A stretch of 64,000 nt of DNA from an uncultured Bacteroidia bacterium. GTDB taxonomy: Bacteria; Bacteroidota; Bacteroidia; Palsa-948. The position numbers and the translations under genes are program-made. Of the stretch, positions 46,408-62,752 are shown one piece after another. The stretch is from positions 10,138-74,137 of the forward strand of contig CAYZTB010000005.1 of NCBI GenBank assembly GCA_964481195.1, read 5' to 3'. The notes under the pieces are model-generated. The model ran no database searches. It had not been told where the DNA came from and saw only the letters and a program-made list of their open reading frames with translations. The stretch's first letter is position 1. Each line of letters opens with the position of its first letter.

Positions 46408-46455
46408 TAATTATTGTTTAAAAAAATAGTACTCAAAAAAAGTAATCCGCAATAA

Positions 46456-49400: not shown

Positions 49401-49518
49401 TTTGAATTTTATTAGAAGTAGCTTTGTTAGTAGATTGCGCAAATAAAGTTTGTGTACAAAAAAATGTTACACCAACAATAAAAACAAAGAAAATCCAGTT
49501 TCTGTAATACTTATTCAT
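46456..49518 (-). CDS. Large secreted adhesin (paralogue C): signal peptide, MAM-like head domain, PKD domains, and a T9SS type-B CTD
   Basis: The head contains CSDLGGENGWS...RFNLTSGAGVDPCT...PGFGNASIQLGQP...YKPWTLEGVNL...SYWDFSCG, shared with D and E. The C-terminal cassette is shared with B. Confidence 0.8.
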   Translation of the reverse strand: MNKYYRNWIFFVFIVGVTFFCTQTLFAQSTNKATSNKIQIQNGESAPGTNPIVKKNIPVSPFAACSDLGGENGWSSYTAATGFHQKGGSPDPTFFAPVAPVTPRFNLTSGAGVDPCTQGTTGPPIPLVCPGFGNASIQLGQPNTSGLNGGCANSLPYPPPGVGAAGNGCSEQLRYPLTVGPQDTNFIYAYALVLENPPGGHTAAEAPFSEIYILKANGDTVPCSHRKYIADLNGGVGNGFFQASCAGSLNPGYPPAGMIVSYKPWTLEGVNLSAFVGQNLTVVITNSDCALGGHYCYSYWDFSCGSLSTNPASYCVGNSVTITAPTDPIINYTYQWSHNGQPYTGAPNSTSQTIIPFPQPGDTFAVLVSQPSGCPFYITYVPTPMQVTSNFNYTPLGTCGSGVVSFTDSSYTPNGTPIVVWNWSFPGGSPTSSISQNPSGIIYSPGTYSVSLIVTSQQGCIDTVIIPIIVSAGIDPVAAAITAPVCFNNPTLFTDQSVGNPTVAQWNWNFGDGSTSTSQNPSHTYGAPGTYSVTLIITNTSSCVDTVNLLAIINPLPLALFSSTPVCVGNQSCFTDASTVTPGTITGWSWNFGDPTSGAANISTAQNPCHTFSGPGTFTVILTATTDSGCQSTTMLPANVYPLPTAAITPKNVCLNALTPFTDASTSPAGSPINAWSWNFGDGSPNDVNQNPSHTYSTLGTYTITLIVTTVQGCKDTTTSTAVIYNPPIALYSDSVKGCAPVCATFNDLSTSIDGTIASWQWSFPGGNPAISGLQNPKVCWNKPGVYGASLIVTSSYGCVDSVATPLYITVYDWPVANFCVAPTVASITDPNFVFCDLWSNSVTSWMWDFGDGSPKDSINTDPAHSYSLSVLNNDFYYFTISLAVQNIYGCWDTISKTIEILPEFTFYIPNTFTPNQDGMNELFFGKGRGIKEYEIWVFDRWGNLLWNCEHTGKNTDFDSPGQDGLSSFCKWDGKVVGGGMDMSGQSGQLMQEDVYVWKVRLIDVFNKRHAYIGHVNVVR

Positions 49519-49533
49519 TTTTTTGTATAAATT

Positions 49534-52155
49534 TTACCTTACCACATTAACATGCCCAATATACATGTGTTTTTTATCAAAAATATCAACTAATCTAACT
49601 TTCCAAACATAAACGTCTTCCTGTGCTAGTTGATTGCTACCTCCGCCCATATCAACACCACCTTTTACAACCTTGCCATCCCACTTACAAAACGAAGGCA
49701 ATCCTTCTTGTTTTGGATTAGTGGCATCGTTATCCCAGTTTGTGTTTTTATCTTCGTGATGACAATCCCAAATTTGATTTCCCCATCTATCGAACAACCA
49801 GATATTATATTCTTTAATGCCTCTTCCTTTACCATAAAATAACTCGTTTACAAAATCGCCATTAGGCGTGAATGTATTTGGAATATAAAATGTAAACTCA
49901 GGCATCAACTCTACTATTTTACAAATAGTATCCCAACATCCATACTGATCCTCTACCCTTAAGCACACGTTGAAAGCATAGAAGTCATTTTGCGTAGCTG
50001 TTGCTGAGTAACTATGAATTGGGTCTGTGTTTACATAGTCAGAATCATTATCTCCAAAATTCCAAGACCACGATATTACATTTGAAGTCCACAGGTCACA
50101 AAAATTAAATACCGGATTGGTTACAGGCTGCATAGTCGGAGTTACACAAAAATTTGCTTTAGGACCTGGTACTGTAGAAATCATAGGAAGAGTAAGCGTG
50201 TCCTTACAACCATAGTTAGTTGTAACCAATAAAGTTGCATTATAATTTCCTGGCGTGTAGTAACAAATATTAATAGGATTTTGAGCGGCAGAACCAGTAG
50301 GTGTGCCTCCAGGGAATGTCCATTGCCAATTAACAATATTGCCATCTACTGGCTGAGATAAATCTGTGTAATCATTACAAATTACACCGCAGCCACTATC
50401 AGGAGCAGAGAAATTAGCAAGAGGAGGATTGTAAACAACTACCTGTTGAACTACAGTATCTATACAACCATTTTTAGATGTTACCACTAAAGTAACCATA
50501 TGAGTACCAGCTGTTAAATAGCTGGTAGCTGTATTTTGAGAAGTAGCAGAAGTTGGAGTACCACCCGGCATTGACCAGTTCCAAGCTGTTATCGGATCTC
50601 CTTGCAATCCAACAGAACCATCTGTTAATGATGTAGCATTTCCTAAACATGGCGTTGATGGGGTAAGTGCTGCGGTAGGAAATCCTCCCGTTGTGACAGA
50701 ATGGGTAACATTAGCTGAACACCCATTCGATGCTGTGATAGTTAACGATGCAGTATAATTACCCGGAGGGTATGTTACATTAACAGTAGGCGTAGTTGCT
50801 GTTGCTGGTGAACCGCCAGGAAACGACCAACTATATCCGGTAATATTTGCAGATCCTTGAGGTGAAACAAAGCTGCTATCTTTAAAAATATAATTACCAC
50901 AAACACCCGTAAAATTAAAGTTAGGCAATGCTAGTCCTGGGGCATAAGTAAGATAAAAATTACAACCTGATGGTTGAATAACTTGAAGCTGAAACGTATC
51001 TCCTTGTACTGGGTTAACAACATAGGTTTGGTTAGTTTGACCCGGTACAACTACACCATTATGATACCATTGATAAGTAAATGGATTATTGGGGTCAGAG
51101 ATAGGGCCTGTCATTGTGGAAGTACCACCTATACAGCCTAGAGAAAGAGGTACAGGACCACACTTGAAATCCCAATAGGAGTGAGCATAATGACCACATT
51201 GTGCACAATCCACGTTTGTAATAATAATAGTTAAATTTTGTCCTACATATTGTTTAAGATTTACTCCAACTGTAGTCCAAGGTTTGTATGACGTACTAGT
51301 ACCTCCAAGACATCCTCCTGTTCCTGCAGCAGTAAAAAATCCTGGGAGTGGGCCAGAACCTCCAGGGGCTACATATTTTTGGTAAGAACAATCCACTGTG
51401 TCTCCATTTGGAGCAAGAATTAAAAATTCTGCAAATGGGCGCTGGGTTTGAGAATGCGAAGATCCTGGATCGAATAATACAACCGCATAAGCGTAAACAA
51501 AGTTTGTATCTTGTACAGTAGGAACAAAATTATAAGTCATTTGTTCTACCCAACATCCAGTTTTTTGAGGACATCCAAGTTGCAACGATGCGTTACCAAA
51601 ACCAGGAGCAACTAATGGAATTGTTGGACCAGGGCCACCTCCAATAGGATTAGTTCCGGGAGTACAAGGATCTATTCCAGTACCTGAAGTCATTGTAAAA
51701 CAAGTAGTAGTAGAGTTTGTATTTACAGGAGGGGATACAGAAGCACTCATGGTAGGAATACCTGTAGTACCATTTGTAGTACCCGGTGCACCTGCCCACG
51801 TACTCCATCCGTTTTCAAATCCAACATCACCGCAAGCCATTACAGATGGAGGGTTGCCGGACTTATCTTTTAGCACACTTAGATCTTCTTTGTGTACATT
51901 TTTAAAGTCTTTAAAAAATTGCTTTCTATTGGCTATTAACTTATCAATAACTACAGATGGAACTCCATCTTTTTTCATAACCTCTCTCTCTTTTGCTTCA
52001 TTAAAATATTGGGGAGAAATTCTGTAGTCCCCTAAAAGCTTAGGCTCATTTGATGGATTTGTCTGAGCGTTTGTTGTAGTCGAAATTAACATCGCTACGG
52101 TAAATGCTCCAACAATAATTGAAGCAAACGATAATTTGTTTTTTAATGTATTCAT
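49534..52155 (-). CDS. Large secreted adhesin (paralogue D): signal peptide, MAM-like head, PKD domains, and a T9SS type-B CTD
   Basis: It has the same head-domain motifs as C and E (MACGDVGFENGWSTW; RFN-like; SYWDFKCG). The CTD is YIPNTFTPNGDFVNELFYGKGRGIKEYNIWLFDRWGNQIW. An 11-nt gap to the upstream gene indicates an operon. Confidence 0.8.
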   Translation of the reverse strand: MNTLKNKLSFASIIVGAFTVAMLISTTTNAQTNPSNEPKLLGDYRISPQYFNEAKEREVMKKDGVPSVVIDKLIANRKQFFKDFKNVHKEDLSVLKDKSGNPPSVMACGDVGFENGWSTWAGAPGTTNGTTGIPTMSASVSPPVNTNSTTTCFTMTSGTGIDPCTPGTNPIGGGPGPTIPLVAPGFGNASLQLGCPQKTGCWVEQMTYNFVPTVQDTNFVYAYAVVLFDPGSSHSQTQRPFAEFLILAPNGDTVDCSYQKYVAPGGSGPLPGFFTAAGTGGCLGGTSTSYKPWTTVGVNLKQYVGQNLTIIITNVDCAQCGHYAHSYWDFKCGPVPLSLGCIGGTSTMTGPISDPNNPFTYQWYHNGVVVPGQTNQTYVVNPVQGDTFQLQVIQPSGCNFYLTYAPGLALPNFNFTGVCGNYIFKDSSFVSPQGSANITGYSWSFPGGSPATATTPTVNVTYPPGNYTASLTITASNGCSANVTHSVTTGGFPTAALTPSTPCLGNATSLTDGSVGLQGDPITAWNWSMPGGTPTSATSQNTATSYLTAGTHMVTLVVTSKNGCIDTVVQQVVVYNPPLANFSAPDSGCGVICNDYTDLSQPVDGNIVNWQWTFPGGTPTGSAAQNPINICYYTPGNYNATLLVTTNYGCKDTLTLPMISTVPGPKANFCVTPTMQPVTNPVFNFCDLWTSNVISWSWNFGDNDSDYVNTDPIHSYSATATQNDFYAFNVCLRVEDQYGCWDTICKIVELMPEFTFYIPNTFTPNGDFVNELFYGKGRGIKEYNIWLFDRWGNQIWDCHHEDKNTNWDNDATNPKQEGLPSFCKWDGKVVKGGVDMGGGSNQLAQEDVYVWKVRLVDIFDKKHMYIGHVNVVR

Positions 52156-52166
52156 CTTTGTTTAAT

Positions 52167-53432
52167 TTAATCTGTAATTGTAATTAAGCCTTGTTGGTAA
52201 ATATCTCTTCCATTTTTGTTTTTTACTACTGCTTTCCATAAATAAGTTTCTCCTTTTCTTGTGTTATTTCCTTCCCATACTAGATTTTTATCTGATGTTT
52301 TATATACGATGTTCCCTTGTGCATCTGAGATAGTAATTGTAAATTCATAATCTCCCGACTGAAGAGTAATAGGCATCCAAGTATCATTAATCCCGTTTCC
52401 ATCTGGGCTAAATGCATTAGGGGCTAACAAGTCTAATTCGTTTTTCAGATTCACTTCTTTTACTACAACACCCACACATCCAATTTGATTTTTTACATAT
52501 AAAGTAACTTTGTACGATCCATACTTTTTATACGAGTGACTAGGGCTTGGCATGAAAGAAGTTTGCTTATCTCCAAAATCCCATTTCCAATCTGCAGCAT
52601 CGCTATAGTCAGAATCAAAATTAACCAGTAACTCATTTTCTGCCGAAACCAATGTGTTTATTCTTGGATCTGGAGCAGCAGAAACAATAATATTGTTTTT
52701 CTCCTCTGCTTTTTTTCTGTCTACTTCCGAAATGATTTGAAGTTTTACTGTAAAGGAACCTGCCTCTTTATAGATATGTTTGGGGCTTGCTTCTGTAGAT
52801 GATTGACCATCGCCAAAATACCATTTGTAGGAGCAAACAGCCTCATTTTTTGCAGGCAAAAACTGCACTTCTTCTCCTTCGCAAATTGCACGCTTGCTTG
52901 TTTGGAAAGAAGCCGATAAGACAACCGGAATAGTTTCTTGTTTCTGCGCAGTGGTTGTTTGAGTAGGAACAGTAGGAGTGTTTTTGTTATCTGAAACTAA
53001 AACTTCATTTTTCTTTTGATTATTTTCTACTTCAGGAGATTTTCCCAAAACCACATTATTGTTTTCTACTTTTCTAGTCTCCTCTTTATTAGAATTCACT
53101 GCAGCATGCTGATTGTTTAAATTTATTTTTCTATTAGAAGGATCAGCATTTTGAATTTGTGTGTTTTCTTCAGAAACAACTGGCATACTTGTTTTCTCAA
53201 CAACATCTTTTGGTGCATTAACCGAATTGCTTTCAGTACTAAAGTAATAGAATAGCCCAGATGCTAAAATAACTGAGGCAGCAATTAAAATATTTCTTGT
53301 AATTTTTGATGTAGGATTACTAACCGCAGCAGTGTCAAGTTTACGTTCTAGCGCTTTCCAATCCGCTGCATTATAATCCACCTCGAAGTTTTCAAGCGAC
53401 TCTTTAATGTGTTTATCTAACTGGCCTTTCAT
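52167..53432 (-). CDS. Signal-anchored (N-in, single TM) protein with a low-complexity linker, two PKD domains and a T9SS type-B CTD; candidate anti-sigma factor or sensor for the adjacent ECF sigma
   Basis: A 44-aa hydrophilic N-terminus precedes one TM helix (ILIAASVILASGLFYYF). The PKD patterns are KWYFGDGQSS...HIY and WKWDFGDKQTS...HSY. The CTD is LLAPNAFSPDGNGINDTWMPI. A 1-nt gap to the sigma stop codon indicates translational coupling. The anti-sigma role is inferred from position and topology only. Confidence 0.45.
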   Translation of the reverse strand: MKGQLDKHIKESLENFEVDYNAADWKALERKLDTAAVSNPTSKITRNILIAASVILASGLFYYFSTESNSVNAPKDVVEKTSMPVVSEENTQIQNADPSNRKINLNNQHAAVNSNKEETRKVENNNVVLGKSPEVENNQKKNEVLVSDNKNTPTVPTQTTTAQKQETIPVVLSASFQTSKRAICEGEEVQFLPAKNEAVCSYKWYFGDGQSSTEASPKHIYKEAGSFTVKLQIISEVDRKKAEEKNNIIVSAAPDPRINTLVSAENELLVNFDSDYSDAADWKWDFGDKQTSFMPSPSHSYKKYGSYKVTLYVKNQIGCVGVVVKEVNLKNELDLLAPNAFSPDGNGINDTWMPITLQSGDYEFTITISDAQGNIVYKTSDKNLVWEGNNTRKGETYLWKAVVKNKNGRDIYQQGLITITD

Positions 53433-53433
53433 T

Positions 53434-54015
53434 TTATTTTTGATGTGCTGTTACTATCTTTTCGAGATCTTTTTTTAAGTGTGCTTTTGCTTTAGACAAA
53501 TTAGATTTTGAAGTGCCTATATTAATTCCTAACTGATCTGCAATTTCCTGATGCGAAAAACCGTCAACAACAAATAAGTTGAAAACTGTTCGGTAGGCCT
53601 CTGGTAATTGTTGAACTGCTTGCATGATTTCTTTAGTGCTTAACTGTAAATATTCGCTTTCGTCTGTTGTTTCGTCTGCTTTATCTTCTATAAAATCCGA
53701 ACTTGTATGATTAATAAATTGCTTATTCTTTCTTATATAATCTAGTGCTGTATTAACAATAATTTTTCTTACCCAACCTTCAAATGATCCTTTTCCTTGA
53801 TATGATTTAATACTTGTGAATACTTTTAAAAACCCATCTTGTAATATATCTTTTGCTTCTTCATTATTAGCTGAGTATCTCAAACAAGCTCCCATCATTT
53901 TGCCATACAATTTCTGATATACTAATTGCTGGTATTTTCTTTCCCCTTTAATACAACCTTCAATTATGTCAAAAAACGGATCTTTTTTATCTTCACTCAT
54001 CACATCTGTACTCAT
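53434..54015 (-). CDS. ECF (sigma-70 family group IV) RNA polymerase sigma factor; the true start is probably the second ATG at 54000
   Basis: Region 2 is DILQDGFLKVF...W..I..N...D. Region 4 is AYRTVFNLFVVDGFSHQEIADQLGINIGTSKSNLSKA. The promoter motif overlaps the first ATG. Confidence 0.85.
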   Translation of the reverse strand: MSTDVMSEDKKDPFFDIIEGCIKGERKYQQLVYQKLYGKMMGACLRYSANNEEAKDILQDGFLKVFTSIKSYQGKGSFEGWVRKIIVNTALDYIRKNKQFINHTSSDFIEDKADETTDESEYLQLSTKEIMQAVQQLPEAYRTVFNLFVVDGFSHQEIADQLGINIGTSKSNLSKAKAHLKKDLEKIVTAHQK

Positions 54016-54045
54016 AAGACGTTAATATTACAAAAGGTTGCCTTA
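54016..54045 (-). promoter_or_regulatory. ECF-type promoter on the minus strand: TAAGGCAACC-N15-CGTCTT followed by a conserved AGTACA box; a candidate autoregulatory promoter of the sigma operon
   Basis: The minus-strand reading is ATAAGGCAACCTTTTGTAATATTAACGTCTTATGAGTACAGAT. The identical architecture recurs at 56790-56820. GGAAC/CGTC-like spacing is typical of ECF sigma promoters. Confidence 0.5.
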
Positions 54046-54131
54046 TTACCTATCCAAAATCAATGATTATTACAAAAAAAGACGAAAATTCATAAATACT
54101 TGAAAATAAATTAAATAAAACACAATACTTC

Positions 54132-54167
54132 AAAAAAAAACCCGTAAGAGAACTTACGGGTTTTTTT
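54132..54167. terminator. Bidirectional rho-independent terminator separating paralogue E from the sigma operon
   Basis: A9 run, then CCCGTAAG-AGAA-CTTACGGG, then T7 run (54141-54160 stem-loop). Confidence 0.75.
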
Positions 54168-54183
54168 ATTGATAGTCAAACAA

Positions 54184-56745
54184 TTACTTTACAATGTTAA
54201 CGTGACCTATATAAAGGTGTTTTTTATCAAATATATCAGTCAGTCTAACTTTCCATACATAAACATCCTCTTGAGCAAGTTGGTTGCTACCACCTCCCAT
54301 ATCTACTCCTCCTTTTACAACTTTTCCGTCCCATTTGCAATAGGATGAAAGTCCATCTTGTTTAGGATTTGTAGCATCATTATCCCAATTGGTATTTTTA
54401 TCTTCTACATGACAATCCCAAATTTGATTTCCCCATCTGTCAAAAAGCCAGATGTTATATTCTTTCACACCACGACTTTTCCCAAAAAACATTTCATTAA
54501 TAAAATCGCCATTAGGAGTAAATGTGTTAGGTATATAGAATGTAAACTCAGGAATAAGCTCCACAATTTTACAGGTTGTATCCCAACATCCGTATTGATT
54601 CTGAACATTAATACAAATTTTATAAGAATAAAAATCATTTGATGTTGCAGTTGCAGAATACGAATGTGAAGGATCTGTATTAATGATATCAGTCGTGTTA
54701 TCGCCAAAATCCCAAGTCCACTGAACTACATCCGTTGACCAAAGGTCACAAAAATAAAATACTGGGTTAGTAGTTGGCGCTATAGTTGGAGTAACACAAA
54801 AATCTGCATTAGGCCATGGGTATACTTCAACCATTGGAAGCTGAATGGAAGCCTTACAGCCAAAGTTTGTAGTCACACTAAGTGAAACGCTATAGGATCC
54901 AGGAGTATAATAACAAATATTAGTTGGGTTTTGAGATGAAGATGAAGATGGTGTTCCTCCAGGAAAAGACCAAGACCAAGAATTTACTGTTCCATCAACA
55001 GCTTGTGATAAATCAGTATAGTTAGCGCACACTGGAGAACAGCCACTATCTGGCGCAGAAAAATTAGCAATAGGAAGATTGTAAACCAATACCTGCTGAA
55101 TAATCGTATCAATACATCCAGCGACAGAAGTAACAATCAAAGAGACGGTATGCGTTCCCGCTATATTGTAAGTTGTTGAGGTATTTTGACTGGTAGCTGA
55201 AGCAGGATTTCCGCCAGGCATATTCCAATTCCAAGATGCAATGGGATCCCCTTGAACAGCCACAGATCCATCTGTTAATGTAGTAGCAACTCCTAAACAA
55301 GGAATAGTAGGAACAACTGCAGCTGTTGGAAACCCACCTACAGTAAGTGGTTGAGAAATAGTTGCCGTACATCCTTCAGATGAAGTAACTGTAATAGATG
55401 CTGTATAATTTCCAGGCGGGTATGTCACATTGGCTGTTTGGGTATTTGCCGTTGATGGACTGCCACCCGGAAAGCTCCAATTCCAATTAGTTATAGTTGA
55501 AGAAGTTGATGGAGTAACAATGCTATTATCTACAAACACATAGTTGCCGCAATTGCCTGTGTAAGTAAAGTTGGGTTGTACAACCGCAGGTGCATATTTC
55601 AAAAAGAAATTACAACCTGATGGCTGGATTACTTGAACAGCAAAAGTATCATTGGGAGTTGGTGTAACTAATAATGTTTGATTTGTTGCACCTGGCATTA
55701 AGGTGCCATTTTGATACCATTGATAATTATAGGGTACAGTAGAAGTCGAAGCTGGTCCAACAATAGAAGATTGGTTTCCAACACAACCCGCTGCTAAAGG
55801 CACTGGGCCACATTGCACATCCCAATAAGAGTGCGCATAGTGTCCACAGAATACACAATCATGATTATCAATTACACAAGTCAATTGCTGTCCTACATAT
55901 GCAGATAGATTTACGCCAACAATTGTCCAAGGCTTGTAAAAAGTACTATTTCCACCTAGGCATCCTGCAGCTGCTGTATACCATCCCGGTAAATTTGGGT
56001 CACTAATATAACGCTGAAAAGAGCAAGGAACTGTATCTCCATTTTGGTCTAATATTTTAAACTCTACATAAGGCTTTTCATTAAATGCATGTCCACTGGA
56101 AGGATCATAAAGTACAGCTGCAAATGCATAAACTAAATTTGTATCCTGTGCAGTTGGAGTGAAGGGAAACGTAAGTTGTTCTGTCATGCAACCAGTAGTT
56201 TGTGGTTGACCTAATTGAATAGAAGAGTTTCCAAACCCTGGAGCAACAACAGGTATTGTTGGAGCTCCTGCTGCAGCTCCTGGCGTACACGGATCTATTC
56301 CCGCTCCTGTTGTTATATTAAATCGAGGTGCTGGTGGATTAGGTACTGCTGGTTGTAATGTGCCGGGATTTCCTCCACTGTTCGAACCTATTGCTCCTAC
56401 CCATTGACTCCAACCATTTTCTACGCCTAAATCAGTACATGCTAAAGGAACAGGATTAGGATCTTTCTTTTTTGAGAATTGGGTAGAAGAAACAATTGAC
56501 TTATACTTTTGAAGATATAATTTTCTATCTGCTAATACTCTATCAATTTCCGGATCTGATAATCCGTCTTTTTTCATCATTTTTCTAAGCTCTTCATCGC
56601 TGGTACCAGTAACTATTGTTGCCTTTTCAGGAGAGTTTTTGCTAATAGTTTGTTGAGCAAACAACTCATTAAAAAAAAATGGTGAACAAAAAAAAGCAGT
56701 GATAAAAAAAATTACAGATAATCTAGCTGTTGTTTGGTTTTTCAT
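54184..56745 (-). CDS. Large secreted adhesin (paralogue E): signal peptide, MAM-like head, PKD domains, and a T9SS type-B CTD; monocistronic
   Basis: LACTDLGVENGWSQW, RFNITTGAGIDPCT, SYWDVQCG. The CTD is YIPNTFTPNGDFINEMFFGKSRGVKEYNIWLFDRWGNQIW. The DNA is about 80% identical to D over the 3' 400 nt. Confidence 0.8.
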   Translation of the reverse strand: MKNQTTARLSVIFFITAFFCSPFFFNELFAQQTISKNSPEKATIVTGTSDEELRKMMKKDGLSDPEIDRVLADRKLYLQKYKSIVSSTQFSKKKDPNPVPLACTDLGVENGWSQWVGAIGSNSGGNPGTLQPAVPNPPAPRFNITTGAGIDPCTPGAAAGAPTIPVVAPGFGNSSIQLGQPQTTGCMTEQLTFPFTPTAQDTNLVYAFAAVLYDPSSGHAFNEKPYVEFKILDQNGDTVPCSFQRYISDPNLPGWYTAAAGCLGGNSTFYKPWTIVGVNLSAYVGQQLTCVIDNHDCVFCGHYAHSYWDVQCGPVPLAAGCVGNQSSIVGPASTSTVPYNYQWYQNGTLMPGATNQTLLVTPTPNDTFAVQVIQPSGCNFFLKYAPAVVQPNFTYTGNCGNYVFVDNSIVTPSTSSTITNWNWSFPGGSPSTANTQTANVTYPPGNYTASITVTSSEGCTATISQPLTVGGFPTAAVVPTIPCLGVATTLTDGSVAVQGDPIASWNWNMPGGNPASATSQNTSTTYNIAGTHTVSLIVTSVAGCIDTIIQQVLVYNLPIANFSAPDSGCSPVCANYTDLSQAVDGTVNSWSWSFPGGTPSSSSSQNPTNICYYTPGSYSVSLSVTTNFGCKASIQLPMVEVYPWPNADFCVTPTIAPTTNPVFYFCDLWSTDVVQWTWDFGDNTTDIINTDPSHSYSATATSNDFYSYKICINVQNQYGCWDTTCKIVELIPEFTFYIPNTFTPNGDFINEMFFGKSRGVKEYNIWLFDRWGNQIWDCHVEDKNTNWDNDATNPKQDGLSSYCKWDGKVVKGGVDMGGGSNQLAQEDVYVWKVRLTDIFDKKHLYIGHVNIVK

Positions 56746-56789
56746 TTTGTTTATATTATTGGGGATTAAAAAATCTGATTTGTACTTTA

Positions 56790-56820
56790 AAGACGTAGTT
56801 ATTGCAAAAGGGTTGCCTTA
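56790..56820 (-). promoter_or_regulatory. Second copy of the ECF-type promoter (TTAAGGCAACCC-N16-CGTCTTTAAAGTACAAAT on the minus strand), 45 nt upstream of the paralogue E start codon
   Basis: Read directly from the sequence. It is near-identical to the motif at 54016-54045, including the downstream AGTACA.AT box. Confidence 0.5.
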
Positions 56821-56912
56821 AATTTCAAAATAATAATCAACCAAAGAAGTGAATTTTAAACAAAAAATTGAGCTTTATTACAGAAAACCCATTTTTAAAC
56901 AAATCAGATGCT

Positions 56913-58532
56913 TTAATTTTTAACCATTTTAGATGTAACAACTCCATTCTTAAATTTAAATTGAAGAAAATAAACTCCAGCAGGCTGTTTTGTTAAATTT
57001 AATTCTGATATTTCATTTTGAGAAGAGACTTGCTGCACCTTTCTTCCAAAAACATCAAATACTTCTACAGAAAATATTTTCTCATTTTGGGAATTTAACA
57101 GCACTTTTCCAGAAGACGGATTAGGTGTGATTTGTACAAAATTCATGTTACTATAATCTTCATAAACACTTGTATTCCAGCAATTCCCAGGCATATTTGC
57201 ATCCATCCAAACAAGACGTTTACCAATCCAAGTTTTTAAATTATTTACTTCTGTTTGATAGTTAAGAGTTAAATTAAATTGTGAGTAATGCCTTGCGCTA
57301 GCTACAGAAACATAATTGGCAACGCTATCCATTATATGATAAATGTTTGCGTTACTCAATACTGTTGAGCGTAGCTGTGTCCACCTGCATTTCATATCGC
57401 GCGTATAAACCGTATCCTGCAATAATCGTTTCCACCAAAATGGGACTGGAAACGATGCATTTACCCAGCAAGTTAGAGGATAGGTCCATCCCGTATCTGT
57501 CGCAAAGGGTTCACAGCCACCAACTTTTACTTCCCAAGCTGAATTATAATCCCAGTGTGGGCTAGCCATCAATTTACCTCCTTTGTTGATTCTGTCTTTT
57601 GTTAAATATGAGCTACGTTTATACGCGTCAATATTTTTACTCATCTCCTGAATAAAAAAGAAATCCATAAAGGTTGTAGACTCCATGTATTTTCTGTAAC
57701 CGTTTATTGGATCGGCAAAATTTGTACTTGACAACGCATTCTCAAAGCTATCTACATATGCTTGAATATATTTTTTTTGCTGCAAAGTAATATCAGCCCC
57801 TTTAGGATATTTATACGTTAGAAATAAATTTGCACTTTGAGGATGTGCTGAAAACCAACCACTATCCGATGCGTTTATATTTTGATCTACAGCAATAATA
57901 TAACCTCCTGTGAGTGAATCTCCGGCATTGTCATCGAAATCCAATTTTGAAATATCCACACGGTTTTTGTCTTTTTTAATTTTTTCCATCATTACATACA
58001 CCCCATTATATTTCCAAGTGAATCCTGTTTTAAGCATTACTTCACAATATTTAGTTCTGGAAACCCAATATCCTAACTCACGAACTAATTGATAGGTAAG
58101 AACATTTTTCATCAAGGTCGATTCGTTAAAAGGACCGTAAAGAATCCAATCATTTTCTTTAGGCATACCTAAAATGCTAACGTTGGTATCAATGTTTAAT
58201 GGATTTCTAGTTTCAAAACCATAACTTTTCTGTGTCCACCACCATTGCTGCGATATGGAACCACGTTGCTCTATTCCAATTTTTCCGTTGTACTTATAAC
58301 TGACATCTGTAACATGATTCATCAGATTGTAACCTTTATCCAAGATTGCCATGTTAGCATCAATCTTTGGCTCATCTACAATTGCCTGAAAGTTTGTATT
58401 AATGAAAACTATTGGTAGCCTTGTTGAATCCAATGTGGCAAGTGGTAAATGTCCATCTCCCTGCTTTTGAATGCTTTGAGCATTGGAAAAAATTGTGCTT
58501 AAAAAGAAAAGACCAAGTAAATATTTCTTCAT
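56913..58532 (-). CDS. CotH kinase-family protein with a T9SS type-A C-terminal sorting domain
   Basis: Signal peptide. The CotH-like core is LTYQLVRELGYWVSRTKYCEVMLKTGFTWKYNGVYVMMEKI. The C-terminus ITPNPSSGKVLLNS...GVYFLQFKFKNGVVTSKMVK is a Por secretion tail. Confidence 0.5.
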   Translation of the reverse strand: MKKYLLGLFFLSTIFSNAQSIQKQGDGHLPLATLDSTRLPIVFINTNFQAIVDEPKIDANMAILDKGYNLMNHVTDVSYKYNGKIGIEQRGSISQQWWWTQKSYGFETRNPLNIDTNVSILGMPKENDWILYGPFNESTLMKNVLTYQLVRELGYWVSRTKYCEVMLKTGFTWKYNGVYVMMEKIKKDKNRVDISKLDFDDNAGDSLTGGYIIAVDQNINASDSGWFSAHPQSANLFLTYKYPKGADITLQQKKYIQAYVDSFENALSSTNFADPINGYRKYMESTTFMDFFFIQEMSKNIDAYKRSSYLTKDRINKGGKLMASPHWDYNSAWEVKVGGCEPFATDTGWTYPLTCWVNASFPVPFWWKRLLQDTVYTRDMKCRWTQLRSTVLSNANIYHIMDSVANYVSVASARHYSQFNLTLNYQTEVNNLKTWIGKRLVWMDANMPGNCWNTSVYEDYSNMNFVQITPNPSSGKVLLNSQNEKIFSVEVFDVFGRKVQQVSSQNEISELNLTKQPAGVYFLQFKFKNGVVTSKMVKN

Positions 58533-58623: not shown

Positions 58624-59793
58624 CTATATCAGCTTTTGATAGGACTGCCACCAACGATCTGGCACTTCTTCCCTGGTTGCTGCTTCATAATCGGAATAGG
58701 AGCATGGAACGAGGCAATGTCTTTCAAATTTTAACTTTTTCTGCGTTGGATAAGGCACTTCCATCCACCAGCGATCAGAGCGTTTGGATTTATAAAATAC
58801 AATTTCGTTTTTGTGATCTTTGATAGAAACTCGATATTTTATATAATCCGATTTTTTTCTGAAAGGGAAATCCTGGTAACGCTTATAGTATCCTTCAATA
58901 AAATACCAAATCATTTGGGCTACTAAGTGCGCTGTTTGTCCATGTTTATCTTTCGAAGGATTAATTTCAAAAAATCCGATTGCACTTAGTTTATCGCTAA
59001 GTCCAGCGTAACGTGTAATCTGGCATGCTTCTTCGCCATAAAATCCGTTGGGTGTTGCGTTTCCATTTCCAGGAGCATCGCTCATTCGAATAGCAGAGAT
59101 ATCGAACGATAACATATCGGCACTGCGCACAATGGGCTCCACCTCTTCCATCTTACTTCTTACTTCTCCTAATCTATACGCATCAAAATACAATTTATGA
59201 AAAAGTTCAATTTCTTTTTGTGCTACAAAATAAGTTTGATAACCAATGTTACTATAGTTAAATAATATGTTTGGCTGATGTAAAATTATTTTACCCACGT
59301 AGGCCGAAGAATTGAATTCAGAATCCGGTCCGCCTATATCAAACTTTGCATCCACATCAACTAAATTAATAGTCGGTTCAATTTTATTAAATGCTTTGTA
59401 AATTGGAAAAGTCAGGTCTTGTCCGCCACCAATAACAATCGGAAGTATTTTATTTTTTATTAACTCATGGCAAACACTAGTCAATGCAAAATAGGAATCT
59501 TTAACAGTATGCCCTTGCTTGATATTCCCTAGGTCAACTATTCTTGCTTTATATTTTCCTTTAAATAAATTATATAAGTACGGCCTCACTGCATTGGCTG
59601 CTTCACCGGCACCTTCGTTATTTACTGCTCGCCTGTCTTCTTCCACCCCAACGATAGCCAAGTGCACGCCCTTCAACTCCGGGAATTGTTTGCCTGAAAG
59701 ATATTTACGAATGGCTGCCCCCAGTGTATTTTCCGGAAATTTTACTTCTCCTTCTAACTCAATGGGTGAAAAAAATTGGGATATGTCTTCCAT
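58624..59793 (-). CDS. Arginase/agmatinase/formiminoglutamase (ureohydrolase) family protein with a C-terminal extension
   Basis: GGGQDLTF (a GGDHS variant), DVDAKFD, and SFDISAIRMSDAPG (S.D.D..DP) manganese-binding motifs. Confidence 0.55.
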   Translation of the reverse strand: MEDISQFFSPIELEGEVKFPENTLGAAIRKYLSGKQFPELKGVHLAIVGVEEDRRAVNNEGAGEAANAVRPYLYNLFKGKYKARIVDLGNIKQGHTVKDSYFALTSVCHELIKNKILPIVIGGGQDLTFPIYKAFNKIEPTINLVDVDAKFDIGGPDSEFNSSAYVGKIILHQPNILFNYSNIGYQTYFVAQKEIELFHKLYFDAYRLGEVRSKMEEVEPIVRSADMLSFDISAIRMSDAPGNGNATPNGFYGEEACQITRYAGLSDKLSAIGFFEINPSKDKHGQTAHLVAQMIWYFIEGYYKRYQDFPFRKKSDYIKYRVSIKDHKNEIVFYKSKRSDRWWMEVPYPTQKKLKFERHCLVPCSYSDYEAATREEVPDRWWQSYQKLI

Positions 59794-59948: not shown

Positions 59949-62573
59949 TTACTTCTTCTTAGCATACTTCTTCTTAGCCTTAATTATTTTCAATTTAGGC
60001 GTTTTGGTTTTCGCTGCAGTTTTTACTTTGGGCGCAGGAGCTTTCATTTCAGATATAGTCGCTTTGGGTTCTGCCTTTTTTGATTTTGCAGTTTTAGACT
60101 TCTTCCCTTTGCTGGCTTTCTTAAATCCTGCAATTTGCAAACACTCTTCAAGCTCTAGCTCTTGCGGATCTTTGCCGGCTGGTATGCTGAAATATTTTTT
60201 ACCCGACTGAATAGAAGGCTTGCCCCAACGATTAAAAACCACTTTCACTCTTCGTTCCCCTTCCCAGGATTTAATGTGCTTTTCTTTATCTTTTTGAATT
60301 TTTGCTGCTAATATTGGAATCGCCTCTTCAAGCGTTATCGTAAAAGGATCAAATACTTTAGGCATGGAAGCATTGGTGTTTCCGTGTTTGATATAATTTC
60401 CAAAAAAACCCTTAGCTGCCATTATATCCTGTCCTTCATACTGCCCTATTGTTCTTGGCAAACGAGGCCCATCCATAATTTCTGTAGCCCGTTCAAGCGT
60501 AATATTATATGGGTCTTCAGTTTTGGGAAGTGAAGTGAATGCTTCTTTATGCTTGATGTATGGACCAAACCTTCCTATGCTAATTATCAAATCCTCTCCT
60601 TGATATTTTCCAAGTGTTCGAGGAAGTTTAAATAAATCTAATGCTTCTTCTAAAGAAATGGTATCAATGCGTTGTCCTTTTCTGAGTGAAGCAAATTTCT
60701 GCTTCTCTTCTTCGTCCTGTCTGCCAATTTGTGCCATGGGACCAAACCTTCCAACACGAACCAAAATATCTCTTCCGCTTTTAGGGTCTTTCCCAAGTAC
60801 CCGTTCACCAGAGGCACGCTCCGAATCTTGTGTAGTAGTTTCTACAGTTTTATGAAAAGGAGTATAAAACTCTCTGAGCATATCCTTCCAAGATAATTTC
60901 CCTTCAGCAATAATATCAAACTCCTCCTCTACCTTTGCTGTAAAATGGTAGTCCATTATTTGAGGAAAATATTTTTCTAGAAAATCATTTACCACAATTC
61001 CAATATCTGTTGGGTATAACTTTCCCTTTTCAGCTCCTGTAATTTCTGTTTTTATTTCGGAAGTGATCTTTGTCTCTTTTAACAAGATAACGTTGTAATT
61101 TCTTTCTCTTCCTTCTCTCAATTCCTTATCAACATACAAACGTTTTATAATAGTAGATATAGTAGGAGCATAGGTAGAAGGCCTGCCTATTCCAAGAGAT
61201 TCTAATTTTTTTACCAAGCTAGCTTCCGTGAAACGTGCAGGAGGCAATGTAAAACGTTGGGTGGCAGAAATCTCTTGCATGCCCACGTCCTGTCCTACGG
61301 TAACTGCCGGAAGAATACCTTCTTCTTTTTCTTCTTCCTCATCTGTGCTTTCCATGTACACTTTCAAAAATCCATCAAATAAAATAATTTCTCCTAAAGC
61401 AAGAAAAATATTTTCTGTTTTATTTTGAGAAATAGTAATGGTAGTTTTCTCGAGTTCAGCATCTGCCATTTGGGAGGCAACCGTTCTTTTCCAAATTAGC
61501 TCATATAATTTTCTTTCACGATCATCTTCCGCTTCAATTGTTTTTGCATTCAAAAAAGTTGGTCGAATTGCTTCGTGTGCCTCTTGAGCATTTGCAGATT
61601 TGGTAGTGTATTGTCTTTTTTTCCAATATCCATCACCAAACAAGCGCTGAATTTCATTTCTTGCTGCGTTCAATGCAAATCCCGAAAGATTCACGGAATC
61701 AGTACGCATGTAAGTAATCTTACCTGCCTCGTATAAAGTTTGTGCAACACGCATAGTTTGCGATACCGAAAATCCAAGTTTCCTACTTGCTTCTTGCTGT
61801 AATGTAGAGGTAGTAAATGGAGCTGCGGGAGTACGTTTAGATGGCTTCTTTTCAATATTTTTTATTGAGAAGATTGCCCCGTTTAGCTTCTCCAACAAAT
61901 CATTTGCTTCTTTTTCAGATTTTAACTTATCTGATAAATCTGCCTTCAGTATCGTATCCTTTCCTTTTTCGTCTTTTACAGTAAACAAGCCTGTTACCTT
62001 ATAATAGGAAGAAACTTCAAATACGTTAATCTCTCTTTCGCGTTCCACTAGCAATCTTACCGATACGGATTGTACTCTGCCTGCCGAAAGTGATGGCTTA
62101 ACTTTTTTCCAAAGAATTGGCGACAGTTCGTATCCAACTAATCTATCCAACACCCTACGTGCCTGCTGGGCATCTACTAAATTCCTATCTATGGTGCGAG
62201 GGTTTCCAAACGCTTCCTGAATGGCAGTCTTTGTAATCTCGTGATACACAATACGTCTTGTTTTCTTTTCATCTAGACCCAACGCTTCCAACAAGTGCCA
62301 AGCAATGGCTTCGCCTTCTCGGTCTTCGTCCGTTGCTAGCCATACTATTTCAGATGCTTTTGCTAATTTTTTTAGCTCACTAACTACCTGCTTTTTTTCG
62401 GGAGATATTTCATAGGCTGGCTCAAAGTTGTTTTCTACATCAACGCCCATGTTCTTTTTAGGAAGATCGCGTATGTGGCCTATACTGGATTTTACAATAT
62501 AGTCATCGCCCAAAAACTTTCCAATGGTTTTGGCTTTGGCTGGTGACTCGACTATTACTAGATTTTTTGCCAT
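59949..62573 (-). CDS. topA: DNA topoisomerase I with a lysine-rich C-terminal tail
   Basis: MAKNLVIVESPAKAKTIGKFLG Toprim N-terminus, an active-site Tyr region, repeated C-terminal zinc-ribbon-like/Topo_C repeats, and a KKAKK-rich tail. Confidence 0.9.
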   Translation of the reverse strand: MAKNLVIVESPAKAKTIGKFLGDDYIVKSSIGHIRDLPKKNMGVDVENNFEPAYEISPEKKQVVSELKKLAKASEIVWLATDEDREGEAIAWHLLEALGLDEKKTRRIVYHEITKTAIQEAFGNPRTIDRNLVDAQQARRVLDRLVGYELSPILWKKVKPSLSAGRVQSVSVRLLVEREREINVFEVSSYYKVTGLFTVKDEKGKDTILKADLSDKLKSEKEANDLLEKLNGAIFSIKNIEKKPSKRTPAAPFTTSTLQQEASRKLGFSVSQTMRVAQTLYEAGKITYMRTDSVNLSGFALNAARNEIQRLFGDGYWKKRQYTTKSANAQEAHEAIRPTFLNAKTIEAEDDRERKLYELIWKRTVASQMADAELEKTTITISQNKTENIFLALGEIILFDGFLKVYMESTDEEEEKEEGILPAVTVGQDVGMQEISATQRFTLPPARFTEASLVKKLESLGIGRPSTYAPTISTIIKRLYVDKELREGRERNYNVILLKETKITSEIKTEITGAEKGKLYPTDIGIVVNDFLEKYFPQIMDYHFTAKVEEEFDIIAEGKLSWKDMLREFYTPFHKTVETTTQDSERASGERVLGKDPKSGRDILVRVGRFGPMAQIGRQDEEEKQKFASLRKGQRIDTISLEEALDLFKLPRTLGKYQGEDLIISIGRFGPYIKHKEAFTSLPKTEDPYNITLERATEIMDGPRLPRTIGQYEGQDIMAAKGFFGNYIKHGNTNASMPKVFDPFTITLEEAIPILAAKIQKDKEKHIKSWEGERRVKVVFNRWGKPSIQSGKKYFSIPAGKDPQELELEECLQIAGFKKASKGKKSKTAKSKKAEPKATISEMKAPAPKVKTAAKTKTPKLKIIKAKKKYAKKK

Positions 62574-62752
62574 AATGAAAACTGAAATTCAAACTGCATT
62601 TAATTAACAACCATACTTATAAAGATGCAAAAACTTGAAAATCGGTTGCAAAGGAAAACAATTTTTTAGTACAAAAAATATTGTGGACTTTTTTAAACTC
62701 AGTTTCTGCTATGAAAAAATGGGGGTAAAATAATTTTTAAAAGCACCCCAAA

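What the first reader, a model, noticed from the sequence alone, without database searches (positions are those of the whole stretch)
56790..56826. Second copy of the same promoter in front of the separately transcribed paralogue E
TTAAGGCAACCC-TTTTGCAATAACTA-CGTCTT-TAAAGTACAAAT (minus strand) matches the sigma-operon promoter at about 33 of 38 positions, including both hexamer-like boxes and the downstream AGTACA.AT box. Only the spacer differs, at 16 versus 15 nt. Two otherwise unrelated intergenic regions sharing a 38-nt element is strong evidence that it is a functional site and that E belongs to the same regulon.
Basis: seen in the sequence. Interest (0 to 1): 0.6.

Follow-up and report, generated by a model that had tools for sequence, protein, structure and literature searches.

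The report
Second ECF sigma promoter before gene E
A 44-base stretch in front of a surface-protein gene is a second copy of the promoter that the neighbouring alternative sigma factor uses for its own operon, so the gene is very probably switched on together with that operon; this is well supported but an ordinary kind of bacterial regulation.

Summary
On the minus strand, 56821..56778 (before the 853-aa gene E) and 54046..54003 (before the ECF sigma gene) share TAAGGCAACC[C]TTTTG.AATA...ACGTCTT...AGTACA.AT, which is 34 of 42 positions with one 1-nt gap. GCAACC-N14-20-CGTCT occurs nowhere else in the 64 kb.

A matrix built only from 36 sigma-upstream sites of other genomes scores the two sites 32.4 and 32.3 bits; the next best position scores 11.5. 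GGCAACC-N14-16-CGTCT sits directly before the sigma gene throughout this Bacteroidota ECF family, which is the signature of autoregulation.

The E copy is kept before E orthologues in two other species whose intergenic DNA is otherwise unalignable. Further copies precede separately transcribed E-family paralogues in three more lineages. In distant relatives, copies precede a PorP/SprF gene. A strong terminator, conserved through compensatory changes, separates E from the sigma operon.

Verdict: this is an ECF-type promoter, and E is a regulon member. It is a new member of a known kind, and there is no experimental proof.

The more interesting by-product is the sigma's partner. It looks like a Dma1/Reo-type envelope-spanning anti-sigma, but its outer module is PKD-PKD plus a type IX secretion type-B sorting domain.

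The parts
56778..56821 (-). Whole shared element in front of E (TTAAGGCAACCCTTTTGCAATAACTACGTCTTTAAAGTACAAAT)
   Evidence: The matrix trained on other genomes scores it 32.4 bits, the best position in the window.
56811..56817 (-). -35 element GGCAACC of the E promoter
   Evidence: It is invariant in the E-upstream regions of the window, L085 and L086. It is also the family consensus.
56790..56795 (-). -10 element CGTCTT of the E promoter
   Evidence: It is the longest invariant run in the three-species alignment of E-upstream regions. It matches the family consensus CGTCT.
56781..56786 (-). AGTACA, the inferred start-site region, with the predicted start near A 56783 and a 38-nt leader to ATG 56745
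   Evidence: A-G-Y-A-C at +6..+10 after CGTC is conserved in sigma and cargo promoters of the close clade. The start position is inferred, not mapped.
54184..56745 (-). Gene E, 853 aa: signal peptide, N-terminal jelly-roll domain of unknown function, PKD repeats and a CHU_C (type IX secretion type-B) sorting domain
   Evidence: Pfam and NCBIfam. It is 60% identical to the 873-aa operon paralogue. Model and fold search of the N-terminal domain.
54132..54167 (-). Intrinsic terminator after E (A-run, CCCGTAAG-TTCT-CTTACGGG, U9)
   Evidence: dG is -19.1 kcal/mol with z -6.5. The L085 and L086 equivalents have compensatory stem changes.
54003..54046 (-). Twin element, the autoregulatory promoter of the sigma operon (GGCAACC 54042..54036, CGTCTT 54021..54016, AGTACA 54012..54007)
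   Evidence: The matrix scores it 32.3 bits. The same motif lies before the sigma orthologues.
53434..54000 (-). ECF sigma factor gene, with its start revised to ATG 54000 (188 aa), because the listed ATG 54015 abuts the -10 box
   Evidence: Sigma70_r2 and r4_2 domains only. Most homologues start at the position of ATG 54000. It matches solved SigE, AlgU, SigW and RpoE at 1e-14 to 1e-18.
52167..53432 (-). Candidate anti-sigma, 421 aa: conserved N-terminal ~40 aa, one membrane helix, a ~100-aa low-complexity tether, PKD x2 and CHU_C
   Evidence: The N-terminal motif is conserved in the partner gene of nearly all loci. 28 of 48 partners carry CHU_C. Related loci have OMP_b-brl_2 or PorP_SprF in its place.
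42499..52155 (-). Three co-transcribed cargo genes (873, 1020 and 1302 aa), all PKD plus CHU_C. The first two carry the E-family N-terminal domain.
   Evidence: The gaps between them are 11-48 nt and hold no internal motif copy.

Best explanation
The element at 56821..56778 is a promoter read by RNA polymerase carrying the ECF sigma factor encoded 2.7 kb downstream (53434..54000). It has a -35 GGCAACC, a 15-nt spacer, a -10 CGTCTT, and a start site inferred within AGTACA near 56783.

The same sigma reads the near-identical promoter in front of its own operon (sigma, membrane partner, three PKD/CHU_C cargo genes). This gives positive autoregulation.

When the sigma is released from its membrane-anchored partner, both promoters fire. 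E is a type IX secretion type-B cargo protein that ends in its own terminator, and it is induced together with its operon paralogues.

Shown: the motif, its specificity, its conservation and its gene associations. Inferred: which sigma reads it, the start sites, the anti-sigma role of the partner, and the signal.
For: - The motif occurs only at these two sites in 64 kb, against 0.04 expected.
- A matrix from 36 non-redundant sigma-upstream sites of other genomes gives 32.4 bits (E) and 32.3 bits (sigma), against 11.5 for the next position. The background is -38 +/- 10.
- GGCAACC-N14-16-CGTCT lies 14-47 nt before the sigma start across Flavobacteriales- and Chitinophagales-type genomes, with an unconserved spacer.
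- E orthologues lie between CotH and sigma in L085 and L086, whose sigmas are 68% and 63% identical to the window's. They keep GGCAACC-N14/15-CGTCTT-..AAG while the rest of the 170-290-nt intergenic region is unalignable.
- Independent second copies precede separately transcribed E-family paralogues in L081 (18378), L108 (14488) and L101.
- In L002, L003, L005, L006 and L008 a second copy precedes a PorP/SprF gene.
- E-family genes inside operons have no site.
- The gene most like the window's E in L081 (85% identical over the N-terminal domain) sits inside the operon. The gene family is therefore under this sigma either way.
- E and its operon paralogue are only 60% identical as proteins. Neutral DNA of that age would not retain 81% identity.
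- The terminator after E is strong and conserved.
- The sigma is a canonical two-domain ECF. No other sigma gene was found among the ten mid-sized ORFs checked (113-313 aa).
- From my own knowledge, an AAC-containing -35 and a CGT-containing -10 are the general ECF promoter pattern (Staron et al. 2009; Rhodius et al. 2013).
Against: - There are no transcript data, mapped 5' ends or binding data.
- Only 64 kb of this genome could be scanned, so the size of the regulon and the genome-wide specificity of the motif are unknown.
- The training sites were picked with a GCAAC...CGTC expression. The matrix therefore partly restates that pattern, although the sites' position before sigma genes is independent of it.
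- No terminator is evident between CotH and E, so E may also receive read-through transcription.
- With strict scoring, pairwise similarity of the core alone is only moderately significant (11 of 3000 shuffles).
- Some relatives with gaps between cargo genes have no second copy (L112).
Confidence: 0.85

Rival explanations
1. The similarity is a non-functional relic. E arose by duplication of an operon cargo gene and carried a copy of the sigma promoter region with it, and the copy has simply not yet decayed.
For: E is a paralogue of the first operon cargo gene. E is absent from that position in L081 and L082, so an insertion or duplication history is real. With lenient scoring the alignment extends weakly about 90 nt upstream of the core. 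The window and L085 each have the same AG(T/C)AC variant in both of their copies. This could reflect common descent or gene conversion.
Against: The proteins are only 60% identical, so unconstrained DNA would be randomised. Only the two boxes and the start region are kept in the E-upstream regions of three species, while everything else diverged. Second copies recur in other lineages before other paralogues and before PorP/SprF. Descent by duplication and present function are not mutually exclusive.
Confidence: 0.03
2. The element is functional but is read by something other than the adjacent sigma. This could be another ECF paralogue of the genome with the same specificity, or a DNA-binding regulator whose operator overlaps both promoters.
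For: Bacteroidota carry on average about 22 ECF sigmas per genome (PMC7826278). Only 64 kb of this genome is visible. Related clades use near-variants such as TGCAACC...CATCT, so cross-talk is conceivable. The conserved A-G-Y-A-C after the -10 could in principle be an operator half-site.
Against: The motif travels with this sigma gene family in 36 non-redundant loci and changes with the clade of the sigma. This is what autoregulation predicts. The architecture is bipartite with a fixed spacer length and free spacer sequence, which is promoter-like. It has no dyad symmetry, unlike an operator. No other sigma gene was found among the ten mid-sized ORFs of the window that were checked.
Confidence: 0.08
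3. It is a housekeeping (sigma-A type) Bacteroidota promoter, or simply AT-rich sequence that looks promoter-like.
For: A TTTTG follows the -35 box and resembles the Bacteroidota -33 TTTG. The generic sigma-70 scan finds promoter-like sites all over this AT-rich region at chance level.
Against: No TAnnTTTG follows at the right distance. The G+C-rich GGCAACC and CGTC are what is conserved, not the AT-rich parts. A true housekeeping promoter in the window, upstream of topA at about 62610-62655, is conserved in L081 and L082 and looks different. It scores only 11.5 bits.
Confidence: 0.02

Closest known systems
Autoregulated ECF sigma promoters with satellite copies at regulon genes (for example E. 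coli rpoE P2 and sigma-E regulon promoters, B. subtilis sigW). Named from my own knowledge of Staron et al. 2009 and Rhodius et al. 2013.
   Same: - A two-domain sigma.
- An AAC-type -35 and a CGT-type -10 with a spacer of fixed length but free sequence.
- One copy before the sigma operon.
- A membrane partner encoded next to the sigma.
- Further copies before a few functionally related genes.
   Different: - The -35 is GGCAACC rather than GGAAC/GAAAC.
- The sigma start codon lies only 14-18 nt after CGTC in many members, so the sigma mRNA would be nearly leaderless.
- The regulon consists of type IX secretion type-B cargo proteins, and of PorP/SprF in distant relatives, rather than envelope-repair genes.
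[quoted passage not shown]
   Same: - It is restricted to Bacteroidota, and sigma and partner are in one operon.
- The partner has a short N-terminal cytoplasmic region; in Dma1, 40 aa suffice to bind the sigma.
- The partner also has one membrane helix, a long disordered tether and an outer-envelope C-terminal module.
- In loci with sigmas 47-48% identical to this one, the partner does end in an OMP_b-brl_2 barrel, the annotation of Dma1 (L059, L066).
- Paralogous gene families form the regulon (nigD there, E-family here).
   Different: - Here, and in 28 of 48 partners examined, the outer module is PKD-PKD plus a type-B type IX secretion sorting domain instead of a beta-barrel.
- No nigD was seen.
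- The regulon genes are type IX secretion cargo.
- I could not compare the sequence directly with Das1, EcfO, Dma1 or Reo, or assign the ECF group.
PorY-PorX-SigP cascade of Porphyromonas gingivalis (PMC4800418)
   Same: An ECF sigma of Bacteroidota controls genes connected with type IX secretion.
   Different: - SigP is controlled by a two-component system, not by a co-encoded membrane partner.
- Its proposed target motif, C(T)AAA(G/C/T)A(T)A(C)T(A/G)A, is unrelated.
- It drives genes of the secretion machinery, whereas here the targets are cargo (and PorP/SprF in distant relatives).
FlgM-sigma-28 secretion checkpoint of flagellar assembly (from my own knowledge). It is relevant only to the speculative reading.
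   Same: An anti-sigma that is itself a substrate of the secretion apparatus whose late cargo genes the sigma controls.
   Different: FlgM is soluble and wholly exported by a type III system. Here the partner is anchored in the inner membrane, and only its C-terminal part could engage type IX secretion. Nothing has been tested.

Membership tests
ECF (group 4) sigma-dependent, autoregulated promoter | Bipartite site with an AAC-containing -35 and a CGT-containing -10 | tested here: met
   GGCAACC and CGTCTT are present at both window sites. The family consensus is nAGGCAACC / CGTCT.
ECF (group 4) sigma-dependent, autoregulated promoter | Spacer of constrained length but unconstrained sequence | tested here: met
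   GCAAC..CGTC spans 24 nt at 8 of the 36 training sites, 25 nt at 26 and 26 nt at 2. Information content in the spacer is close to zero. The window sites span 24 nt (sigma) and 25 nt (E).
ECF (group 4) sigma-dependent, autoregulated promoter | A copy lies directly upstream of the sigma gene in orthologous loci | tested here: met
   36 non-redundant loci from other genomes and the close relatives L081, L082, L085, L086, L108, L110 and L112.
ECF (group 4) sigma-dependent, autoregulated promoter | The adjacent sigma has only the sigma-2 and sigma-4 domains | tested here: met
   Sigma70_r2 plus Sigma70_r4_2, TIGR02937 at 100 bits. It matches solved ECF sigmas.
ECF (group 4) sigma-dependent, autoregulated promoter | Sigma-dependent transcription start a few bases after the -10 | not testable with these tools
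   No transcript data are available. The start near A 56783 and A 54009 is inferred from the conserved A-G-Y-A-C.
ECF21 sigma with a Dma/Reo dual membrane-spanning anti-sigma | Partner encoded next to the sigma, with a short N-terminal cytoplasmic region, one membrane helix and a long disordered tether | tested here: met
   The 421-aa protein has residues 1-55, a helix at about 57-75, and low-complexity residues 76-175. The N-terminal motif F(E/D)xxIKxxLxxFExPYxxxxW is conserved in partners of nearly all loci, and W25 is invariant. Binding to the sigma has not been tested.
ECF21 sigma with a Dma/Reo dual membrane-spanning anti-sigma | C-terminal outer-membrane beta-barrel (OMP_b-brl_2) | tested here: not met
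   The window partner ends in PKD x2 plus CHU_C. The barrel is present only in partners of related loci L059 and L066, and L026 has a PorP_SprF barrel.
ECF21 sigma with a Dma/Reo dual membrane-spanning anti-sigma | Sigma assigned to group ECF21 (homology to Das1/EcfO or the ECF Hub model) | not testable with these tools
   No reference sequences or group models were available. The NCBIfam Bacteroidota models TIGR02985 and NF058625 match below their cut-offs.
PorXY-SigP control of type IX secretion | SigP-type target motif, and an orphan sigma controlled by a response regulator | tested here: not met
   The published motif is unrelated. This sigma has a co-encoded membrane partner.
Bacteroidota housekeeping promoter (-33 TTTG / -7 TAnnTTTG) | TAnnTTTG about 19 nt after TTTG | tested here: not met
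   It is not present at either site. Compare the conserved topA promoter.

The most novel reading that the evidence does not exclude
Both promoter copies are the output of a secretion-coupled switch. The sigma's 421-aa partner would be a Dma/Reo-like envelope-spanning anti-sigma whose outer module (PKD-PKD-CHU_C) is itself a type-B substrate of the type IX secretion system. Engagement, anchoring on a PorP/SprF-type protein, or cleavage of that module would then release the sigma. Release would turn on a battery of type-B cargo adhesins: E and its paralogues here, and PorP/SprF in other lineages. This would be an envelope checkpoint analogous to FlgM/sigma-28.

The evidence does not exclude it. 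The architecture is found in 28 of 48 partners. It is interchangeable with OMP_b-brl_2 and PorP_SprF barrels in related loci. The regulon consists only of type IX-related genes. I found no paper describing an anti-sigma with this sorting domain.
Probability: 0.2. Interest if true: 0.75.

Novelty: new member of a known kind. Interest (0 to 1): 0.35.

Why it matters
The finding gives an uncharacterised, widespread Bacteroidota ECF sigma family a defined recognition sequence, nAGGCAACC-N14-16-CGTCT. [quoted passage not shown]

This makes the regulon predictable in any genome of the group by a simple motif scan. It links expression of type-B cargo to an envelope-spanning partner protein, which is directly testable.

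The promoter duplication itself is textbook ECF biology and would not surprise a specialist.

Tried and rejected
- **Generic sigma-70 and terminator scan.** Promoter-like sites were at chance level. The scan missed the obvious terminator after E, which folding confirmed.
- **Loose patterns CAAC-N15-19-CGTC and CGTCTTNNNAGTACA with mismatches.** These are not specific on their own. The extra hits at 36314, 43307 and 17374 lie in coding DNA and were dismissed.
- **Third-best matrix hit at 62649, upstream of topA.** It is conserved in L081 and L082, but as a housekeeping -33 TTTG / -7 TTTG promoter, not an ECF site.
- **Metagenome scan with AGGCAACC-N14-16-CGTCTTNNNAGYAC.** It gave 20 hits. About half were G+C-rich chance matches inside genes. 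Only L101/L091 (an E-family gene), L088, L099 and L107 look like real sites. The window's own sample was not in the collection, so this did not serve as a genome-wide scan.
- **Rfam and tRNA scans.** Nothing was found at the site.
- **PorP/SprF gene in the window.** None was found.
- **Protein search with the partner's N-terminal 80 aa.** It found no candidates.
- **Protein search with the E N-terminal domain.** It gave only 7 hits. There was no Pfam or PDB sequence match. Fold search gave only weak jelly-roll matches to CBM, MAM, ephrin-receptor and lectin domains, with TM 0.3-0.4, so no function is claimed.
- **Literature search for the ECF group's published promoter motif, and for anti-sigmas with CHU_C.** Nothing was found.
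- **SigP of P. gingivalis as a model.** Rejected on motif and on mode of control.

Full report
**The observation**

The quoted sequence is on the minus strand at 56821..56778. It lies 33 nt upstream of the ATG (56745) of an 853-aa ORF, called E here (54184..56745).

Its twin lies at 54046..54003, directly before a 193-aa ECF sigma ORF. MAFFT aligns TAAGGCAACC[C]TTTTG.AATA...ACGTCTT...AGTACA.AT with 34 identical positions of 42 and one 1-nt gap. The remaining parts of the two intergenic regions do not align convincingly.

- GCAACC-N14-20-CGTCT occurs only at these two places in the 64 kb, against 0.04 expected.
- The local alignment score of the two intergenic regions exceeds all 2000 dinucleotide shuffles.
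- With strict scoring the core alone is reached by 11 of 3000 shuffles.

Pairwise similarity is therefore real. The decisive evidence is comparative.

**The genes**

All genes here are on the minus strand. In order of transcription:

1. A CotH-like protein with a type-A type IX secretion tail (56913..58532).
2. E.
3. A hairpin terminator.
4. The sigma (Sigma70_r2 plus r4_2 only).
5. A 421-aa membrane protein with two PKD domains and a CHU_C (type-B sorting) domain.
6. Three large PKD/CHU_C proteins of 873, 1020 and 1302 aa, separated by 11-48 nt.

These assignments rest. E is 60% identical to the 873-aa protein.

The hairpin after E (CCCGTAAG-TTCT-CTTACGGG with flanking A- and U-runs) folds at -19.1 kcal/mol with z = -6.5. 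It has positional equivalents in two other species with compensatory stem changes, CCCGTCAG/CTGACGGG and CCCGGCAG/CTGTCGGG.

**The motif is the family's autoregulatory promoter**

I collected 80 loci encoding relatives of the sigma from species-representative genomes (42-64% identity). I also fetched syntenic contigs of closer relatives (61-99% identity).

In 36 non-redundant loci, nAGGCAACC-N14-16-CGTCT(t/a) lies immediately before the sigma start. Nearly 2 bits per position fall in the two boxes and essentially none in the spacer.

A position weight matrix built from those sites excluded the window and its 99%-identical twin L084. It scores the E site 32.4 bits and the sigma site 32.3 bits. 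The next best of about 128,000 window positions scores 11.5 bits. That third position is upstream of topA. It is conserved in relatives, but as a housekeeping -33/-7 TTTG-type promoter, so it is unrelated.

From my own knowledge, an AAC-type -35 and a CGT-type -10 are the general ECF pattern (Staron et al. 2009; Rhodius et al. 2013). The sigma matches solved SigE, AlgU, SigW and RpoE structures at 1e-14 to 1e-18.

**The E copy is under selection**

E orthologues occupy the same position, between CotH and the sigma, in L085 and in L086/L087. Their sigmas are 68% and 63% identical to the window's.

Their upstream regions are 170-290 nt long and cannot be aligned, except for the following:

- L085: caGGCAACC-TTTACGTATTCTTA-CGTCTT-TTAAGCAC
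- L086: taGGCAACC-TTTATTGTACCTTTG-CGTCTT-GTAAGCGT

Matrix scores are 25.5 and 29.0 bits.

L081 and L082 lack E at that position. L081 instead has a second copy at 18378, 96 nt before another separately transcribed E-family gene. L108 has one at 14488 before an 865-aa E-family gene that follows a 372-nt gap. A metagenome contig, L101, has one before yet another E-family gene.

E-family genes that sit inside operons have no site within 400 nt.

The gene most similar to the window's E in L081 (85% identical over the N-terminal domain) is the first cargo gene inside the operon. The family therefore stays under this promoter type whether it is co-transcribed or has its own copy.

In distant Chitinophagales-type loci (L002, L003, L005, L006, L008) a second copy lies 1.4-3 kb downstream of the sigma promoter, before a ~319-aa protein. 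The L002 representative matches PorP_SprF at E = 7e-66. The other four share its N-terminal sequence by eye and were not scanned. PorP/SprF-like proteins are reported to anchor type-B cargo (PMC9143113, title and abstract only). The regulon theme, type IX type-B cargo and its partners, is thus coherent across the family.

**The downstream box**

AGTACA.AT is not conserved family-wide; information content after CGTCT is low. In the close clade, A-G-Y-A-C occupies positions +6 to +10 after CGTC in both sigma and cargo promoters.

If CGTC is placed at about -12 to -9, this region reads A(-3) G(-2) Y(-1) A(+1) C(+2). I therefore read it as the start-site region. The predicted starts are near 56783 (38-nt leader for E) and 54009. 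This is inference.

The window has T at the variable position in both of its copies, and L085 has C in both. The sample is too small to interpret.

**Consequences for the sigma gene**

The listed ATG 54015 abuts CGTCTT and cannot be the start if this is the promoter. Most homologues begin at the position of ATG 54000, MSEDKKDP.... The distance from CGTC to that ATG is 17 nt in five close relatives and 14-18 nt in many others. The sigma mRNA would then have a leader of about 9 nt.

**How it probably works**

- The sigma is held at the inner membrane by its partner.
- On release it transcribes its own operon, giving positive feedback, and E.

The anti-sigma role of the partner is inferred from four observations:

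- The partner is always adjacent to the sigma.
- Its N-terminal motif F(E/D)xxIKxxLxxFExPYxxxxW is conserved, with an invariant Trp.
- A membrane helix follows the motif.
- A ~100-aa low-complexity tether follows the helix.

This is the layout described for Dma1/Reo, the dual membrane-spanning anti-sigmas of the Bacteroidota-specific ECF21 sigmas Das1/EcfO. In Dma1 the first 40 residues suffice to bind the sigma, and a disordered tether leads to an outer-membrane barrel (PMC10927553, PMC13088901, PMC13114119).

In loci with related sigmas the partner indeed ends in an OMP_b-brl_2 barrel (L059, L066) or a PorP_SprF barrel (L026). Here, and in 28 of 48 partners examined, it ends in PKD domains plus CHU_C.

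I could not compare sequences with Das1 or Dma1, nor assign the ECF group. Membership in ECF21/Dma is therefore open, and the defining barrel is absent here.

**What E is**

E has a signal peptide, an N-terminal domain of about 240 aa with no Pfam or PDB sequence match, four PKD-type repeats and CHU_C.

A model built from 8 sequences has pLDDT 73 and pTM 0.77. It is a jelly-roll beta-sandwich with only weak resemblance (TM 0.3-0.4) to carbohydrate-binding modules, MAM domains, ephrin-receptor ligand-binding domains and lectins. A surface ligand-binding or adhesin role is plausible but unproven.

**Verdict**

In kind this is ordinary: an autoregulated ECF sigma with a satellite promoter at a paralogous cargo gene. 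It is new only in that this sigma family, its recognition sequence and its regulon appear undescribed in the literature I could search.

The partner protein is the more interesting lead. Nothing here is experimental.

Noticed in passing
window 52167..53432 (-): The gene after the sigma encodes a protein with a conserved ~40-aa N-terminus, one membrane helix, a ~100-aa low-complexity tether, two PKD domains and a type-B type IX secretion sorting domain (CHU_C). The layout parallels the Dma1/Reo dual membrane-spanning anti-sigmas, with a secretion signal in place of the outer-membrane barrel. 28 of 48 partners in related loci share it, and others end in OMP_b-brl_2 (L059, L066) or PorP_SprF (L026).
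   Followed up: partly
window 54000..54015 (-): The listed sigma start ATG 54015 touches the -10 box. The likely start is ATG 54000, giving a leader of about 9 nt. In that leader an out-of-frame ATG (54005) is followed at once by TGA (54002..54000), whose A is the first base of the sigma ATG (AUGUGAUG). The equivalents are GATGTGATG in L085 and L086, and ATGCGATGA (a two-codon ORF) in L081 and L082. L001 lacks it.
   Followed up: partly
window 55741..56475, 51085..51864 and 48532..49344 (-): E, the 873-aa protein and the 1020-aa protein share an N-terminal domain of about 240 aa with no family assignment. It has invariant Cys, His, Asp, Glu and Trp residues (GxENGW, PGFGNxS, YKPWT, NxDCxxGGH...SYWD). 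It also occurs alone with a type-A sorting tail in ~360-aa proteins (P0123, P0125). It is predicted to be a jelly-roll sandwich.
   Followed up: partly
L002:11316, L003:13003, L005:11554, L006:11475, L008:2926: In Chitinophagales-type relatives a second copy of the motif precedes a ~319-aa protein rather than a cargo gene. The L002 one matches PorP_SprF at E = 7e-66. The other four resemble it by eye.
   Followed up: yes
window ~62610..62655 (-), upstream of topA (59949..62573): The conserved sequence TTTCCTTTGCAACC...TTTTTGCATC is present in the window and L081, and in a degraded form (TTTGCAATT...TTTTGCATC) in L082. It looks like the housekeeping -33 TTTG / -7 TTTG promoter of topoisomerase I. 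It was the third-best hit of the ECF matrix (11.5 bits) by partial resemblance only.
   Followed up: yes
window 56913..58532 (-) and 58624..59793 (-): A CotH kinase-like protein with a type-A sorting tail and an arginase-family protein lie upstream of E. The arginase-family gene precedes the sigma locus in all close relatives examined except L112, whose contig begins just upstream of the sigma gene. CotH lies between it and the locus only in L081, L084, L085 and L086. L082, L108 and L110 have none, and L110 has a DnaJ-type gene there instead. No ECF motif precedes CotH in the window. No terminator is evident between CotH and E.
   Followed up: no
L082:10603..11151 and L112:1021..1575: In two relatives a DUF4382 gene (~183 aa, with a lipoprotein-like signal) is inserted between the sigma and the PKD/CHU_C partner.
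   Followed up: no
L108:14170..14300: The gap before the second promoter copy holds about six tandem copies of a ~21-nt unit (GGAGCATCGGTAAGCCCCAAC).
   Followed up: no
L032, L057, L068, L080 (sigma-upstream regions): Sphingobacteriales-type members of the sigma family have TGCAACC-N16-CATCT instead of GGCAACC...CGTCT before the sigma gene. The promoter variant appears to change with the sigma clade.
   Followed up: no
window 42499..46407 (-): The last operon gene (1302 aa) begins with a DUF7948 domain instead of the E-family domain. The same DUF7948 occurs with a type-A tail near the sigma locus in L110.
   Followed up: no
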